Source of the DNA: Raja brachyura
Lineage: Eukaryota
Reading direction: 5' to 3'
NCBI GenBank assembly: GCA_963514005.1
Contig: CAUPSL010000078.1
Coordinates: forward strand, 62,001 to 126,000
DNA length: 64,000 nucleotides
A program made the position numbers. The stretch's first letter is position 1. Each line of letters begins with the position of its first letter. Of this stretch, positions 19,101 to 55,400 are shown in pieces.

Positions 19101-22100
19101 ACAGGAACAACATGCAAAGTCTACAGATGTAACAGCCGATGTCGGTATTTAATTCAGGTCCCTGACTCCGTGCTGCCCTGTTTCACATTGTAATTTACCT
19201 GTCATGTTGTTCCTCATTCAATCGGCTTTCCACCTTGAACCATTTTTCCCACCACTACTCACATTCCCACAATGTTGAGTCTTCCTGTAACCGTGGCCAC
19301 GGAGGCGGCCACTGTGCGCAGCGGTAGAGTTGCTGCATTACAGCGCTTGCAGCACCGGAGACCCAGGTTCAATCCTGACTACATATGCTGTCTGTACAGA
19401 GTTTGTACGTTCCCCCCCGTGACCGCGTGGGTTTACTCCGAGATCTAAGGTTTCCTCCCACATTCCAAAGACGTACAGGTATGTAGGTTAATTGGCTTGG
19501 TGCGTGTGTGTAGGATAGTGTTAATGTGCGGGGATTGCTGGTCAGCGCAGACTCGGTGGGCCGAAGAGCCTGTTTCTCTAAATTAAACTAAACAAAACCA
19601 GTAAATGTTAAACTGCAACCAATCTGCCTCGTAGCTGACTTGTATTATGAGCAGTGTGAGCCCCCAACAGAGCACCACAGTGTCACAACTAGTAGAGCTG
19701 ATGCCTCACAGCAACACAGACCCGCGTTCAATTTTCACCTTGAGTGCCATCTATGCGGAGTTTGCACGTTCTGGGTGTAACCGCATTGGATCCCTCCAGG
19801 GGCTCCGGTTTCCTCACACATCCTAAGATGTGTCAGTTTTTAGTTTAATTGGCCACTGTAAATTACCCCTAGTGGGTGGTTGACTGGATGAGATGGTGCA
19901 ATGAGATAGAATTCATGAGAGCAGGTGGTTGGCATGGACTCAGTGGGCCAAAAGGACTGCTTGCATGCTGTACTTTTCAATGATATCTCTAGAATTTGGT
20001 GCAATTAATTCATAATGTCTACCTATTTATTTTACTCTGAATTCACAATTTTCAAATATCTGATTAACAGAAACATTTAACAACAGCACAAAGGCTAGTT
20101 GACATTGGCGACTGTCGGGGCATTTCAGGTGTAGCTGCTGCCTTATTCTACTTGAGATCAATCATTTATTCAAGCCCAATACCTTTATTAGCAACAGTGC
20201 ATCACACATTCCCATCTTACCTCTCCTCTTTTTCCTCCACCAAACAAATACTGCCAAGACAATAGCCAGCAATATCAGCACACACACGGCAATAAGGCCT
20301 ATGTGCCCGTCTTTCTTGCTATTTCCTTCTGAAAAATAAGAATGCATAATTTTACAAATCAATTGTTAAGCTGTGCAGCTAAATAGATTGGCACTGTCTG
20401 AGGACTTCAGGATGAAGAAGGGTCTCGACCCGAAATGCCACCTATTCCTTTTCTCCAGAGATACTGCCTGACCAGCTGAGTTATTCCAGCAATTTGTGTC
20501 CATCTTCAGTGTAAACCAGCATTTGCAGTTGATCCTTACACATGGACAGGGGACGTTTCGTTTTGGGACCCTTCTTCAAACTTTGTTTGAGAAATTGATT
20601 AGAAGTCTTTGAAAATGCAACAGGAACCCGTAGACAATGTATATTCGAGCAGCAGTAGTTTGCAGGTGTGCAAAGCCTAAAATTCTAAACCAAATGATGG
20701 AAACCCAGAATAGGTAACAACATTGGAATTAGAAACAAAAGAAATACAATATATTGTAGAGATCCAAACGTTGTGAACAAACCAATGTTTTTAAAGAAAT
20801 ACAGTTTTTGCACACATGTGCGTTTTTTAACAACGAGCAAAGTTCCTGCCGTTGCAAACAGGCGCACCAGTTCACCGGCGATGAACTCATCACCAACTCA
20901 CATGAAAATCCTGTCACGTGATAGACCCAGCTCCCCTGACGAGGGTTCTAGCAATAAGTGGCCCGACCACCAGATGTCGCCAGAATATCTGGATTTTCAT
21001 AAGATATCTGATCAATTGATGCAAAGGCACATGGCTTATGACATTGGGGGTAATAATTAGCATGAATGGAAAAACAATTAAGAGCAAGCAGAGAGTTGTC
21101 TTAAAGGAGTGTTCAGGTTGGGAAACGGCATCTGCAAGTTGGGAATCAATGCAAGAAAGTGAACTACTTATCGTTGGCATTAAGAGCAGATGAAGGGACT
21201 GATGGTGCTGTAGCCTAGGTTGCTGATGATACATAGATCGTTTGGAAATTAAGTTTTGGAGTATGTCAACAGTCTTCAGAGTGAAAAATCAGATTGCTTA
21301 ATTGTGCATTGTTCGAGGAATCTTCAAAAGTGAGCATTTGTGTAGGTTAGTGCAGCATGCATTGAATCAATCTGGTATGATCACCGTTTGTCAGGCTGTT
21401 ATATTGTTCGTTGCAGAAGCTGTAACTTGCGTCACGGAACTTACTTCATTAGGTTTAGGTTTATTAATGCCAGATGTTTCAAGACACAGTGAAAAGGTGT
21501 TGTTTGTATGCTATCCAAACAAATTAGATAAGACTATACATAAATACAAATACAAAATAATAGATAGAGCAAAGAGGAGGATACAGAGTACAGAATATAG
21601 TTCTCAACATTGTAACGCATCCGTCCCATAGACAATGTTCAATGTGCAATGAGGTTGAGGTGAATCGGGCATTAAACCTACATTATGGAAGGACCCTTCC
21701 GAAGCCTGATAACAGATGGAAAGGGGGTGTTCCCGAGCCTGGCAGTGCATATTTTCAACTTCCTGCACCAATTGTGTGATGGGAGCAGGATGGAGGAATG
21801 ACCAGGGTGGACCAAGGCAACCTGGTGTAGATTGACTCAATAGTGGGAAGTCTGGCCTGTGTGACGATCTTTAACTCTTTGTATATTCTTGGGCAGTGCA
21901 GTTCCCAAATCAAGATGTGATGAAACCCAACAACATGCTTTCTCTAGCGGCTTCTATAGATGTTTGCTAGAGTCGCCAGAGACATTATGAATGTTCTCAG
22001 ACTCCTGAGGAAGTAGAGGTGTCGGTGTGCCTCCTTGGCTATGTGGTCAGGCCATGAATGAATATTGTATATATTCATGCCAAGGAACATGAAGCTCTCA

Positions 22101-52400: not shown

Positions 52401-55400
52401 GCAAACCTGGCCACAAAACATTCTATCCCCTTATCCAAATCATTAATAAACCACATAAACATGATGACTGCATGTTTGGAGCTAAGAGTTTTCGCTCAGT
52501 AAATAGCAAAATCCGCAGTGTGTGACACATTCCAGAAAATTAGTCAAGCATGATTTCCCTTTCAAAAATCCATGTTGACGGACTAATCATTTTACTGCTA
52601 TCCAAATGCCCCATTATTACCTCTTTAATAATTGACTCCAGCACCTCTCCCACCATCGAAGTCAGACTAACTAGTTTGTAATTCCCCGTTTTCTCTCTCG
52701 CTCCTTTCTTGAAAAGTGGGATAACATTAGCTATCCCCCAAACCACAGGAGCTGATCCTGAATCTATTGAACATTGGAAAATGATCACCAATGCGTCCAC
52801 TATTTCCAGAGCCACCTCCCTGAGGACCCTGGGATGCAGACCATCAGGCCCAGGGGATTTATCATCCTTCAGTCCCATTAGCCTACCCAATACTATTTCT
52901 CGCCTAATGAAAATGTATTTCAATTCCTCTACCCCCTTAGGCCCTCTGTCCTCCAGTACATCTGGGAGATTGTTTGTGTTTTCTTTAGTGAAGACAGATC
53001 CAAAGTACCTATTCAACTCCTCTGCCATTTCCTTGTTGCCCATACTAATTTCACCTGTGTCAACCTTCAAGAGACCCACATTTGACTTTGCTAATCTTTA
53101 GTGACTGTGCTAATCTTTTCCTGATTTTGCATTGTACTCATGCCTCTCTCTCTTCCGACATTTGGCCATAAACTTGAACCTGTCAAACAAGGCACTTTGT
53201 GTAGGAAAGAACTGCAGATGCTAGTTTAACTCGAAGGTAGACACAAAATGCTGGAGTACTCAGCAGGCAGGCAGCATCTCTGGAGAGAAGGAATGGGCGA
53301 CCTATCAGGTCGAGGCCCTTCTTCAGACTGATGTCAGGGGAGTGGATGGGACAAAGAAAGAATGTAAGCGATGACAGTAAGACTGGTGGGAGAACTGGGA
53401 AGGGGGAGGGGATAGAGAGGGAAAGCAAGGGCTATTTAAAGTTGGAGAGGTCAATGTTCATGCCGCCTAGTTGTAAACTACCCAAGCAAAATATGAGGTG
53501 CTATTCCTCCAATTTGCACTGGGCCTCACACTGACAATGGAGGCGGCCCAGGACAGAAAGGTCAGATTGGGAATGGGAGGAGAGGTTGAAGTGCTGAACA
53601 ACCAGGAGATCAGGTAGGTTAAGATGGACTGAGCAGAGTAGTTCAGCAAAATGATTGCCGAGCCTGCGCTTGGCCTCGCTGATGTAGAGAGGTTGCCACA
53701 TGCAACTGCGGATACAGTAGATGAGGTTGGAGGAGGTGCAAGTGAACCTCTGCCTCACCTGGAAAGACTGTTTGGGTCCTTGGTTGGAGTCGAGGAGGGA
53801 GGGAAAAGGACACGTGTTGCATCTCCTACGGTTGCAGGGGAAAGTACCTGGGGAGGGGGCGGTTTGGGTGGAAAAGGACGCGTTGACCAGGGAATGTCGG
53901 AGGGAACGTCTCCACTGAAAGCAAAAATGGGTGGGAATGGGAAGATGTGGCCAGTAGTGGGATCCTGTTGGAGGTGGCAAAAATGATGGAGGATTATATG
54001 CTGTGTGCGACGGCTGATGGAGTGGAAGGCGAGGACAAGGGGGACTCTGTCCTTGTCACGAATGGGGGGGGGGGGGGGGGGGCGGGAGAGCAAGAGCGGA
54101 GCATCGAGGAAACCCTAGTGAGTAGCCTCGCTCCTGTTTATTTTACACGAGTTAAAATCAGTTTAAACTAATGTTTGCAGCTCTTTCTTCCACAAAGGAA
54201 ACGGGGCATGATGCAAATCAAAGCACACATTCCAGTCTGGATCTGAAACAGGGGAGGTAAACCCTTTTAACGTCTGCATGTACCTCAGACTAACGTGCGC
54301 ATTTTTAACCTGAGTCGCCTCCTGTCCAGATTGAGATTAAGTCAAGACGCTTTTAGCCAGTTGCGAATAAAATTAGAATCATTAACTTACCGGCGAGAGC
54401 CCCTTGTACACGGAAGAAACTCAGCAAGATGAACAGAATCATTTCACGCACAAACTCCCGCATCAACAGCAGCAACTGAGCCAAACTTCACCAACCCCAG
54501 TCTGAAGAAGGGTCTCGACCCGAAACGTCGCCTATCTCCTTCACTCCTTAGATGCTGCTGCACCCGCTGAGTTTCTCCAGCTTTTTGTGTAACCTTCACC
54601 AACATCAACATCAGCTTCACCAACATCAAAGCAGGATCTCATCATGCAATCAGAATGAAAATACGACGGGTCGTCACCAGTTGTCGAGCGATGTCATTGG
54701 ACAAGCACAAAACAATTGACTGCAATGGAGGCACGAGGAGGTGTTGATGCCTATTTACAACAAAGACAAATACACAAAGTGCTGGTGTAACTCAGCAGGT
54801 CAGTTCGCAACTCCGGAGATCATAGATTGGCGGCGATAGACACAAAGCACTGGATTAACTCAATGAATCGAGCAGCATATTTGGAGAAAAAGGATAGGTG
54901 ACTATTGTCAGTCTGAAGTAGGTTCCCAATCTGAAACAGCGCCTGTCAATGTCCTCCAGAGATGTTGCCCGACCTGCTGAGTTACTACAGCACTTTGTTT
55001 TTTTCGCACTCTATAGCAAATGGAATGGAATGGAATTGCAGGGCGTGGTCGCCTGGAACTGTAATTACGTTTCAGATATCGCCCCATTCTTCAGCTGCTA
55101 ATTGCTCCTAATGTTATTTTATGATTCAGGAGACCCATAAATCCAATCACTTGTCCTAACTTGAATCATTACAATGCAGAACAAAAAGGAGGAAATCAAA
55201 CACGGTCCACAGCTAGTAGAGCTGCCGCCTCACTCACAACACCAGAGACCAGCGTTAGATCCGGACCTCTCGCATTGTCTGTGTAGATTGTCTTTAACAA
55301 AGAACTGCAGATGCTGGAAAAATCGAAGGTAGACAAAAATGCAGGAGAAACTCAGTGGGTGAGGAGGCATCTATGGAGCTAAGGAAGAGGCAACGTTTCG

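What the first reader, a model, noticed from the sequence alone, without database searches (positions are those of the whole stretch)
20221..54442. Intact, divergent non-classical MHC class I gene with a remodelled ligand groove
Seen: five clean phase-1 exons, no stops, both disulfides present. By-eye alignment to HLA-A2 numbering shows Y7, Y59, R84, K146, W147 and Y171 retained. T143 is F (PFKEKWD), Y159 is L (FKSLLENDC) and W167 is L, with W at the next position. The N86 glycosylation site is lost (RRHSET), alpha1/alpha2 carry no N-X-S/T site at all, and alpha1 has an unpaired Cys (DGCEI). Established: classical class I conserves these peptide-terminus anchors and N86, and cartilaginous fish have several non-classical lineages besides UAA (UBA, UCA, UDA, UEA, UFA). 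Inference: altered A and F pockets and reduced dependence on the peptide-loading complex, possibly a non-peptide or atypical ligand. The lineage cannot be assigned from sequence alone and could be poorly described.
Basis: partly seen in the sequence, partly recalled or inferred. Interest (0 to 1): 0.8.

Follow-up and report, generated by a model that had tools for sequence, protein, structure and literature searches.

The report
Skate copy of shark UGA gene
This is an intact non-classical MHC class I gene of a skate that belongs to the already named and crystallised shark lineage UGA, thought to present lipids as CD1 does in mammals, so it is a real but largely explained finding.

Summary
On the minus strand lie five clean phase-1 exons (leader, alpha1, alpha2, alpha3, transmembrane) with canonical splice sites.

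The lineage can be assigned. All three ectodomain exons match PDB 9CH4 (E 8e-37, 1e-35, 1e-34), far above any other entry. That entry is titled 'shark nonclassical MHC class I, UGA' (released 2026-03-18). The exons nest among skate sequences inside an elasmobranch-wide clade. A 2025 review reports, as a personal communication, that UFA and UGA bind CD1d-like lipids.

- The altered anchor residues are fixed or nearly fixed across the lineage.
- The tail carries a CD1-type YXXZ sorting motif (YQNI).
- Sequence hydropathy gives only modest support for a greasier groove.
- The lost N86 sequon is private to this copy: 22 of 22 relatives keep it.
- At least seven distinct copies exist in one other skate.

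Verdict: a new member of a known kind, of moderate to low interest.

The parts
54391..54442 (-). Exon 1: start codon and signal peptide (MILFILLSFFRVQGALA plus the first base of a Gly codon). An alternative in-frame ATG at 54463 would add seven residues (MREFVRE).
   Evidence: Read. tblastn of the orthologues matches the leader. The Leucoraja and Amblyraja models start at the upstream ATG and the Rhinoraja models at the downstream one.
35788..36048 (-). Exon 2: alpha1 domain, 261 nt, phase 1. It carries Y7, the unpaired Cys (DGCEI), Y59-W60, the GFHGIIKGQ motif and RRHSETT, where S stands in place of the N86 sequon.
   Evidence: 9ch4_A E 7.8e-37; 86-92% to skate proteins.
23688..23963 (-). Exon 3: alpha2 domain, 276 nt, phase 1. 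It carries the first disulfide pair, F at position 143, K146-W147, L at 159, L-W at 167-168 and Y171.
   Evidence: MHC_I 9e-15; 9ch4_A E 1.1e-35.
22469..22735 (-). Exon 4: alpha3 Ig C1-set domain, 267 nt, phase 1. It has the second disulfide pair and the only N-X-S sequon of the ectodomain (N-V-S).
   Evidence: C1-set 3e-20; 9ch4_A E 1e-34.
20221..20328 (-). Exon 5: connecting peptide, transmembrane helix and basic stop-transfer residues (..WWRKKRR). It ends in phase 1 with a gtaaga donor.
   Evidence: 80-89% to skate proteins.
15613..15653 (-). It carries a YXXZ tyrosine sorting motif (YQNI).
   Evidence: Found by a pattern scan of the minus strand below 20221 and read (acceptor tcctcag). It matches the orthologue tails DYQTIQPNQN..C and DYQNI.PNQNVPC.
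15556..15561 (-). AATAAA, a possible polyadenylation signal about 50 nt after the stop.
   Evidence: Read. Not tested.
54500..54590 (-). A copy of a SINE-like repeat lying directly upstream of the start codons, in the 5' UTR or proximal promoter. Its extent is approximate.
   Evidence: Read. Its 26-nt core occurs 9 times in the window against 0 expected.

Best explanation
The window holds a complete six-exon gene for a skate member of UGA. UGA is a non-classical MHC class I lineage shared by sharks and rays, and its shark member has been crystallised (PDB 9CH4).

Shown here:
- the exon structure;
- membership of the 9CH4 clade in each of the three ectodomain exons;
- lineage-wide replacement of three of the peptide-terminus anchors (T143 to F, Y159 to L, W167 to L);
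- invariance over sharks and rays of positions that vary among classical shark alleles;
- a conserved tyrosine sorting motif in the tail.

Inferred mechanism:
- The heavy chain pairs with beta2-microglobulin.
- It carries a conserved, largely hydrophobic ligand, most likely a lipid, rather than a varied set of peptides.
- It cycles from the cell surface through endosomes by way of its YXXZ tail, as CD1b, CD1c and CD1d do.
- It shows its cargo to T cells or innate-like lymphocytes.

This copy has also lost the N-glycan site at position 86 that every other member seen here keeps. That may weaken its use of lectin chaperones in the ER. It is one of what is probably a multigene family in skates.
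For: Membership:
- 9ch4_A is the best PDB match of each exon, at E 7.8e-37, 1.1e-35 and 1e-34. The next entries score 2.1e-9 (8gm8_A), 3.3e-14 (5h5z_A) and 8.3e-30 (an MR1-beta2m fusion with two stretches).
- Foldseek gives the title of 9ch4 as 'Crystal structure of shark nonclassical MHC CLASS I, UGA'.
- Exon-wise searches return 10 of 13 and 10 of 32 candidates, all elasmobranch class I-like proteins at 59-92% identity.
- A profile of 22 relatives finds 18 lineage clusters at E 2e-124 or better, then a gap to 4e-70.
- In the alpha1 and alpha2 trees the window's exons sit inside the skate and batoid subclades of a clade with SH-aLRT 99 and 98 on stems of 0.9 and 0.71. Triakis UAA (P0125) lies elsewhere.
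- The window keeps 78 of 79 columns that are invariant in the 22 relatives.

Ligand:
- F143 occurs in 19 of 22 rows, L159 in 22 of 22, and L167 in at least 90%.
- Among the columns that vary in the 13 Triakis UAA alleles, 5 of 25 in alpha1 and 3 of 9 in alpha2 are invariant in 21 of 21 UGA proteins. These include Y, F, F and G.
- Groove-floor positions read G, F, L and L where grass carp UAA has N, Y, Y and Y.
- The review PMC12562908 states that crystal structure and mass spectrometry suggest UFA and UGA bind lipids like those of human CD1d (passage read).

Trafficking:
- YXXZ is present in 21 of 27 lineage tails and in 0 of 5 tails of other shark or skate class I proteins.
- CD1b, CD1c and CD1d tails carry YXXZ, including YQNI and YQNIQ, and the motif drives endosomal recycling. 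CD1 genes have the same six-exon layout (PMC5002277, Table 2 and text read).
Against: - No ligand was seen here. The lipid statement is a personal communication in a review, and no primary paper was found in the held library.
- Mean hydropathy at the UAA-polymorphic columns is only modestly higher. In alpha1 it is +0.10 for the window and +0.22 for UGA against -0.05 for UAA. In alpha2 it is -1.01 and -0.75 against -1.72, on 9 columns only.
- Five of the eight classical anchors (Y7, Y59, K146, W147, Y171) are kept across the lineage. Skates also keep R at 84. That is more than CD1 keeps and would suit a peptide or lipopeptide.
- By sequence the protein is MHC_I, not CD1. PF16497 scores 19.5-29.8 bits on three orthologues and 20.4 on the window's alpha2 exon, all below its cut-off of 35. 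No CD1 entry is among the 60 best PDB matches of alpha1 or alpha2.
- The lost N86 sequon and a SINE-like insert just upstream of the ATG allow for a weakened copy.
- Expression of this gene was not tested.
Confidence: 0.7

Rival explanations
1. It is a non-classical class I molecule that binds a narrow set of peptides or N-acylated lipopeptides rather than free lipids. It would use the retained A-pocket tyrosines (Y7, Y59, Y171) and K146/W147 to hold polar groups. This would resemble chicken YF1*7.1 or the lipopeptide-binding macaque class I molecules.
For: - Y7 and Y59 are kept in 21 of 22 rows, K146 and W147 in 22 of 22, and Y171 in at least 90%.
- R is kept at position 84 in the window and in 11 of 22 rows.
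- Sequence similarity lies with MHC_I (87 bits) and not with the CD1 model (19.5 bits, below its cut-off).
- YF1*7.1 entries with N-myristoylated ligands appear among the Foldseek matches of the orthologue model. That model is of low confidence, so this is weak.
Against: - T143, Y159 and W167 are replaced by F, L and L across the lineage.
- The residue at 84 drifts among R, K and Q.
- The review reports lipids like those of CD1d.
- The tail motif points to endosomal loading, not loading in the ER.
Confidence: 0.17
2. It is a decaying or functionally weakened duplicate within an expanded skate UGA family. On this reading the open frame is intact only because the duplication is recent.
For: - The only departure from the 79 lineage-invariant columns is the loss of the N86 glycan sequon.
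- A SINE-like repeat sits directly upstream of the ATG.
- Seven distinct 334-residue proteins, 3-15 residues apart, lie on one contig in Rhinoraja, so copies may be redundant.
- No protein identical to the window's exons was found in the protein collections. The best per-exon identity is 93%.
Against: - All six exons are open with canonical splice sites.
- 78 of 79 invariant columns are kept. Other members show 0-5 departures and the divergent sawfish copy P0013 shows 19.
- Terminal branch lengths of 0.052 and 0.048 are ordinary for the clade.
- The tail motif and both disulfides are intact.
Confidence: 0.1
3. It is a classical, polymorphic peptide-presenting UAA gene or a recent derivative of one (UBA-like).
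For: It has the general class I architecture and keeps five or six of the eight anchor residues.
Against: - It groups away from Triakis UAA in both domain trees.
- Nurse shark UAA 6lup scores only 6e-9 on alpha1 against 8e-37 for UGA.
- Positions that vary among UAA alleles are fixed across sharks and rays.
Confidence: 0.01

Closest known systems
Shark UGA (PDB 9CH4, 'Crystal structure of shark nonclassical MHC CLASS I, UGA', released 2026-03-18)
   Same: - It is the best match of all three ectodomain exons (E 8e-37, 1e-35, 1e-34).
- It shares the signature residues: Cys in DGCEI, GFHGIIKGQ, F at 143, MNRYFK.LLENDC with L at 159, and Y171.
- The alignments are ungapped and of the same length over 84, 89 and 87 residues.
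- The zebra shark protein P0006 matches 9ch4 at E 7e-170 and is about 55-67% identical to the window's exons.
   Different: - The window's gene comes from a skate.
- It is roughly 60-65% identical to 9CH4, by eye from the printed alignments.
- It has S instead of N at the glycan site, which 9CH4 keeps (NQT).
- It has R rather than K at the 84 position and W rather than L after L167.
- Skate and ray tails are longer (YQNIQPKLNAHC), whereas shark tails end at Y-N-x-V/I.
Mammalian CD1 (CD1b, CD1c, CD1d)
   Same: - The gene layout is the same six exons.
- The cytoplasmic tail is short, with a YXXZ motif right after the basic anchor. YQNI and YQNIQ occur in human CD1b, pig CD1d and horse CD1c (PMC5002277 Table 2).
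- Both are non-polymorphic-looking and keep a conserved ligand site.
- UGA is reported to bind lipids.
   Different: - There is no detectable specific sequence kinship. The Pfam CD1-type model PF16497 stays below its cut-off. That PF16497 is the CD1-type model is from recall.
- No CD1 chain is among the 60 best matches of alpha1 or alpha2.
- UGA keeps Y7, Y59, K146, W147 and Y171.
- The likeness is one of working, not of shown descent.
Classical shark class I UAA (nurse shark 6LUP; Triakis scyllium alleles)
   Same: - The domain architecture, both disulfides and beta2m-type alpha3 domain are shared.
- Y7, Y59, R84, K146, W147 and Y171 are shared.
- The spacing between W147 and C164 is the same.
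   Different: - T143, Y159 and W167 are replaced.
- The N86 sequon is lost in this copy.
- UAA-polymorphic positions are fixed in UGA.
- UAA has a long Ser-rich tail without YXXZ.
- The two form separate clades.
Other elasmobranch non-classical lineages (UBA, UCA, UDA, UEA, UFA)
   Same: - They are MHC-linked class Ib genes of sharks and rays (PMC10751288 and PMC12562908, passages read).
- UFA is described together with UGA as CD1-like.
   Different: - The nurse shark 'nonclassical MHC class I antigen' QGX07421.1 (P0215) and its relatives are only 31-36% identical to the UGA profile's first sequence. They have long tails without YXXZ and no close PDB entry. I take this lineage to be UDA from recall of the deposit date only.
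- 8gm8_A is the second-best alpha1 match (E 2e-9). Its lineage was not determined here.
- No reference sequences labelled UBA to UFA were on hand, so these lineages are excluded only indirectly.
Leucoraja XP_055486430 (P0051), a divergent UGA-like paralogue
   Same: - It is sister to the UGA clade in the alpha2 tree (SH-aLRT 90) and lies inside the alpha1 polytomy.
- It shares AGFHGI.KG and MNKYFKDLLEKDC.
- It lies on the same 127-kb contig as a UGA copy, with consecutive accession numbers.
   Different: - It is 47% identical in alpha1.
- It has H-W instead of Y59-W60.
- It has an insert before alpha3.
- Its tail lacks YXXZ.

Membership tests
Elasmobranch non-classical class I lineage UGA | Closest similarity of each ectodomain to the crystallised UGA molecule | tested here: met
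   9ch4_A is first for alpha1, alpha2 and alpha3, at E 7.8e-37, 1.1e-35 and 1e-34. The margin over the next distinct molecule is at least 20 orders of magnitude for alpha1 and alpha2.
Elasmobranch non-classical class I lineage UGA | Forms one clade with the shark and ray orthologues, apart from classical UAA, in separate domain trees | tested here: met
   One search gives SH-aLRT 99 for alpha1 (19 rows, including P0051) and 98 for alpha2 (18 rows). The window sits inside the skate and batoid subclades (99, 97, 99). These are quick trees on 86 and 91 columns. They used 17 lineage rows and 31 other rows; near-identical isoforms were left out.
Elasmobranch non-classical class I lineage UGA | Lineage signature residues (Cys in DGCEI, F143, L159, L167, K146/W147, Y171) | tested here: met
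   All are present in the window. Among the 22 relatives the frequencies are 20, 19, 22, at least 20, 22 and at least 20. This signature was derived here and is not taken from a published definition.
Elasmobranch non-classical class I lineage UGA | Conserved (not defining) N-glycan sequon at position 86 | tested here: not met
   The window has S-E-T where 22 of 22 relatives and 9CH4 have N-x-T/S. This is a general class I feature and not a criterion of the lineage.
Elasmobranch non-classical class I lineage UGA | Linkage to the MHC class Ib cluster | not testable with these tools
   The window holds no MHC framework gene. Its only neighbour is a GPR139-like receptor. No genome of this species was on hand.
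Elasmobranch non-classical class I lineage UGA | Binds lipid | not testable with these tools
   The only source is the review statement. PDB coordinates and ligands are not shown by the tools.
Classical MHC class I (UAA) | All peptide-terminus anchors (Y7, Y59, Y/R84, T143, K146, W147, Y159, Y171) and W167 | tested here: not met
   T143 is F, Y159 is L and W167 is L in alignments to 5h5z, 7cpo, 5ymv and 8y74 and to Triakis UAA.
Classical MHC class I (UAA) | Groups with UAA; high allelic polymorphism | tested here: not met
   Grouping is not met. Polymorphism of this locus could not be tested.
CD1 | Sequence membership (the Pfam CD1-type model above its cut-off, CD1 chains among the best matches) | tested here: not met
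   PF16497 scores 20.4 bits on the alpha2 exon and 19.5, 29.8 and 25.4 bits on three orthologues, against a cut-off of 35. No CD1 chain is in the best 60 for alpha1 or alpha2.
CD1 | Six-exon gene with a very small tail exon carrying YXXZ | tested here: met
   against PMC5002277.
CD1 | Deep hydrophobic groove | tested here: inconclusive
   Several fixed aliphatic or aromatic residues, and a Gly on the floor, are present. Mean hydropathy is only modestly above that of UAA. No coordinates were available.

The most novel reading that the evidence does not exclude
Skates have turned UGA, described as single- or low-copy, into a multigene family, much as mammals diversified CD1 into isoforms. Rhinoraja has at least seven distinct full-length proteins on one chromosome. 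Copies lie beside GPR139-like receptor genes in Leucoraja and in this window. On this reading the window's copy is a functionally diverged isoform with altered ER quality control or trafficking, not a dying gene. It keeps 78 of 79 lineage-invariant positions but has lost the otherwise universal N86 glycan.
Probability: 0.15. Interest if true: 0.55.

Novelty: new member of a known kind. Interest (0 to 1): 0.35.

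Why it matters
UGA and UFA are the candidates for a CD1-like lipid-presenting system in the oldest jawed vertebrates. That bears on whether lipid presentation is as old as peptide presentation.

This window adds no new lineage. It does give a complete, cleanly resolved skate UGA gene with its exon structure and tail exon. 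It shows that the altered anchor residues and the CD1-type sorting motif are conserved from sharks to skates. It also points to two things that seem unreported in the papers I could search: copy-number expansion in skates, and a copy that has lost the N86 glycan.

It also shows that a missing lineage name (UGA) made a known thing look unknown.

Tried and rejected
- **Joined model.** Exons were handled one at a time, and the total of 334 codons comes from arithmetic on exon lengths.
- **AlphaFold2.** I folded the natural Rhinoraja orthologue P0001 with the 22-row alignment. The model was poor (mean pLDDT 61.3, pTM 0.42, alpha1 below 50). I use its Foldseek result only for the title and the top rank of 9ch4, which the sequence searches show independently. 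The ranks of ZAG, MR1, YF1 and chicken BF2 below it carry no weight.
- **Groove volume and hydrophobicity.** These could not be measured from a structure, because the tools give no coordinates.
- **Hydropathy at columns that vary among Triakis UAA alleles.** The excess was only modest.
- **Literature.** '9CH4' gave 18 unrelated papers and '8GM8' gave none. Searches for UFA/CD1/shark/lipid, CD1-like/cartilaginous fish, UGA/UFA/shark and nurse shark/CD1 found only the review PMC12562908 for shark UGA. The UDA and UEA papers (PMC7002201, PMC8454915 and the DOI) are not held, so what I say of UDA and UEA is from recall.
- **Identity of 8gm8.** Not resolved. P0051, P0214 and P0215 are not it.
- **Other copies in the window.** tblastn with five orthologues found no second class I gene.
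- **Rfam.** No match.
- **Classical UAA and membership of CD1.** Considered and rejected (see membership tests).
- **Script machine.** It was lost. The tail comparison was finished by reading sequences. No dN/dS analysis or further tree (careful method, AU test) was possible.
- **Unused tools.** No complex prediction was run. The bacterial genome, phage, plasmid and E. coli collections do not bear on a skate gene and were not used. The closed metagenome and viral collections would not have helped either.

Full report
**What is in the window.** The window has 39-47% G+C and one run of 202 N at 6893-7094. I left the N run alone. Nothing suggests human sequence. Every close protein match is from skates, rays and sharks.

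The finding lies on the minus strand. Stop-to-stop frames at 35783-36154, 23656-23988 and 22410-22754 hold the alpha1, alpha2 and alpha3 domains. Reading the DNA gives these exons:
- leader, 54442-54391
- alpha1, 36048-35788
- alpha2, 23963-23688
- alpha3, 22735-22469
- transmembrane, 20328-20221

Each exon is bounded by AG and GT and each is in phase 1. The junction codons read G, N, V and E, as in the orthologues. An in-frame ATG at 54463 would add seven residues. The Leucoraja and Amblyraja gene models start at the equivalent of that upstream ATG, and the Rhinoraja models start at the downstream one.

**A sixth exon.** The skate orthologues end in D-Y-Q-x-I...C. I scanned the minus strand below 20221 for such a tail followed by a stop. 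Of three pattern hits, one has an acceptor (tcctcag) directly before it. It lies at 15653-15613 and encodes D-YQNIQPKLNAHC-stop, with AATAAA about 50 nt further on. The six coding pieces add to 52+261+276+267+108+41 = 1005 nt. That is 334 codons plus the stop, the exact length of the Rhinoraja, Leucoraja and Pristis proteins. All searches were made exon by exon, and no search, fold or complex prediction of the joined model was run.

**Checking the residue calls.** I used HMMER alignments of the alpha1 exon to nurse shark UAA (6lup) and of the alpha2 exon to grass carp, chicken and other classical molecules (5h5z, 7cpo, 5ymv, 8y74). I also used a MAFFT alignment to 13 alleles of Triakis scyllium UAA.
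- Retained: Y7, Y59, R at the 84 position, K146, W147 and Y171.
- Changed: T143 to F, Y159 to L, W167 to L with W next, and the N of the N86 sequon to S.

A formal alignment therefore does not restore T143 or Y159. alpha1 and alpha2 have no N-X-S/T site. alpha3 has one (N-V-S).

**What it is.** Pfam sees MHC_I in alpha2 (9e-15) and C1-set in alpha3 (3e-20), and nothing significant in alpha1. Against the PDB, one entry stands far above all others for each exon: 9ch4_A, at E 7.8e-37, 1.1e-35 and 1e-34. The next molecules score 2.1e-9 (8gm8_A) and 6e-9 (nurse shark UAA) for alpha1, and 3.3e-14 for alpha2.

To learn the entry's title I folded the closest natural protein, P0001 of Rhinoraja longicauda, with 21 relatives. 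The model was poor (pLDDT 61). Foldseek nevertheless put 9ch4 first and gave its title: 'Crystal structure of shark nonclassical MHC CLASS I, UGA', released 2026-03-18. The zebra shark protein P0006 matches 9ch4 at E 7e-170. The crystallised molecule is therefore from a related shark, and the window's gene is its skate counterpart.

**The lineage.**
- Exon-wise searches of the large protein collection gave only elasmobranch proteins: 10 of 13 candidates for alpha1 and 10 of 32 for alpha2.
- Per exon the window is 86-93% identical to proteins of three skate genera and 100% identical to none. It comes from a skate whose copy is not in the collection.
- A profile of 22 relatives found 18 clusters at E 2e-124 or better, then a gap to 4e-70.
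- The clusters come from three skate genera, sawfish, manta and devil rays, a stingray, and carpet, bullhead, saw, mackerel, cow and ground sharks.
- No chimaera was seen. This is weak evidence of absence.
- An exhaustive HMMER scan of 1.84 billion representatives with alpha1 gave 209 proteins at E 1e-3 or better. Only 3 of them reached 1e-30, and all 3 belong to this lineage.
- Separate alpha1 and alpha2 trees place the window's exons inside the skate and batoid subclades of a clade with SH-aLRT 99 and 98 on long stems (0.9 and 0.71). Triakis UAA lies elsewhere. These trees used 49 rows each, the quick method and few columns.
- A divergent Leucoraja protein (P0051) lies next to a UGA copy on its contig and is the nearest outside relative.
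- The nurse shark 'nonclassical MHC class I antigen' QGX07421.1 belongs to another lineage, at 36% identity. I suspect it is UDA, from recall only.

**What the literature says.** Veríssimo et al. 2023 (PMC10751288, passages read) list UDA and UEA in one MHC-Ib cluster and UBA in another. They mention an unpublished CD1-like lineage, UFA. [quoted passage not shown] It says, as a personal communication, that crystal structure and mass spectrometry suggest they bind lipids like those of human CD1d. I found no primary paper on shark UGA in the held library. Papers in subscription journals are not held.

**How it most likely works.** The replaced anchors are lineage features. F143 occurs in 19 of 22 relatives and L159 in 22 of 22. 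L167 occurs in at least 90%, and K146/W147 are kept in 22 of 22.

Among the columns that vary in the 13 Triakis UAA alleles, 5 of 25 in alpha1 and 3 of 9 in alpha2 are invariant in 21 of 21 UGA proteins from sharks and rays. Among these invariant or nearly invariant columns are two Phe, a Gly at the floor position where UAA has Q/R, and an almost invariant Met. Floor positions read G, F, L and L where grass carp UAA has N, Y, Y and Y. A ligand site frozen for the whole age of elasmobranchs speaks for a conserved ligand.

The sequence-only hydropathy test is modest, however. In alpha1 the values are +0.10 (window) and +0.22 (UGA) against -0.05 (UAA). In alpha2 they are -1.01 and -0.75 against -1.72. 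I count that as weak support.

The tail is more telling. A YXXZ motif directly after the basic anchor is present in 21 of 27 lineage tails and in 0 of 5 tails of other shark or skate class I proteins. CD1b, CD1c and CD1d tails carry the same kind of motif, even the same letters: YQNI in human CD1b, and YQNIQ in pig CD1d and horse CD1c. There it drives recycling through endosomes, where lipids are exchanged. CD1 genes also share the six-exon layout with a tiny tail exon (PMC5002277, Table 2 and text).

The likeness to CD1 is one of working, not of shown kinship. The CD1-type Pfam model stays below its cut-off, and no CD1 chain ranks among the best 60 for alpha1 or alpha2.

**What is peculiar to this copy.** Of 79 columns invariant in the 22 relatives, the window departs at one, the Asn of the N86 sequon (AGC, Ser). 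9CH4 keeps the sequon too. It is a private change, by a single base if the ancestral codon was AAC. It could be an allele, a step toward decay or a sequencing error. The other 78 invariant positions, the disulfides, the splice sites and the tail motif are intact. Terminal branch lengths are ordinary. A SINE-like repeat (9 copies in the window, 0 expected) sits just upstream of the ATG.

**Copy number.** The Rhinoraja cluster holds ten proteins on one 41-Mb contig. Seven of them are full-length 334-residue sequences that differ pairwise at 3-15 positions, so they represent at least seven loci. Sawfish has three copies and saw shark three or four. Some Leucoraja models read through from UGA into a GPR139-like receptor gene.

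**Verdict.** The gene is non-classical and probably presents a non-peptide ligand. The lineage, however, is the known and crystallised UGA, and the N86 loss is private to this copy. It is a new member of a known kind, of moderate to low interest.

Noticed in passing
window 3970-4039 and 7659-8593, + strand: A GPR139-like rhodopsin-family receptor gene with two coding exons. It is convergent with the UGA gene, with about 7 kb between the two stop codons.
- Exon 1 (MELPIIPHFEDIYYPILALIGIP) ends in a phase-1 gtaagt donor, and exon 2 starts after ttcttgcag.
- The intron holds the N run.
- Pfam gives 7tm_1 at 5e-21.
- tblastn gives 58% identity (E 5e-102) to the receptor part of a Leucoraja read-through model that fuses UGA with 'probable G-protein coupled receptor 139'.

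UGA and GPR139-like genes thus lie side by side in two skates.
   Followed up: partly
Rhinoraja longicauda proteins P0001, P0014, P0017, P0019-P0022 (not in the window): These are seven distinct full-length UGA proteins, 3-15 residues apart, on one 41-Mb contig, plus three shorter forms. Their 28 variable positions are spread over all domains. UGA is called single- or low-copy in the review, so skates seem to have expanded it.
   Followed up: partly
window 20410-20435, 24778-24803, 34019-34044, 40909-40934, 42059-42084, 53303-53328, 54500-54525, 60351-60376, 63867-63892: A SINE-like repeat with the core TTTCGGGTCGAGACCCTTCTTCAGAC occurs 9 times with up to 3 mismatches, against 0 expected. One copy lies directly upstream of the UGA start codon and one in the intron just before the transmembrane exon. 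No Rfam family matches anywhere in the window.
   Followed up: partly
window 24901-25488 (-) and 53501-54055 (-); 52540-53097 (-); 2360-3169 (-): These are long open frames inside the UGA introns and flanks that look like retroelement remains.
- Two related frames share a ..YISE.KRRLG..F.EHL.SV.. stretch. It looks like a GIY-YIG nuclease domain of Penelope-like elements (from recall).
- One is a reverse-transcriptase-like fragment.
- One is a coiled-coil ORF1-like frame.

Pfam gave no significant family for any of them.
   Followed up: partly
Leucoraja erinacea XP_055486430 (P0051; not in the window): This is a divergent UGA-like gene next to a UGA copy on a 127-kb contig. It is 47% identical in alpha1 and keeps the AGFHGI.KG and MNKYFKDLLEKDC motifs. 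It lacks Y59 and the YXXZ tail and has an insert before alpha3. It may be a further, unnamed batoid sublineage.
   Followed up: partly
window 49300-49420 (+): A long (TA)n/(ATAT)n microsatellite. It is seen as poly-IY and poly-YI frames in the ORF list.
   Followed up: no
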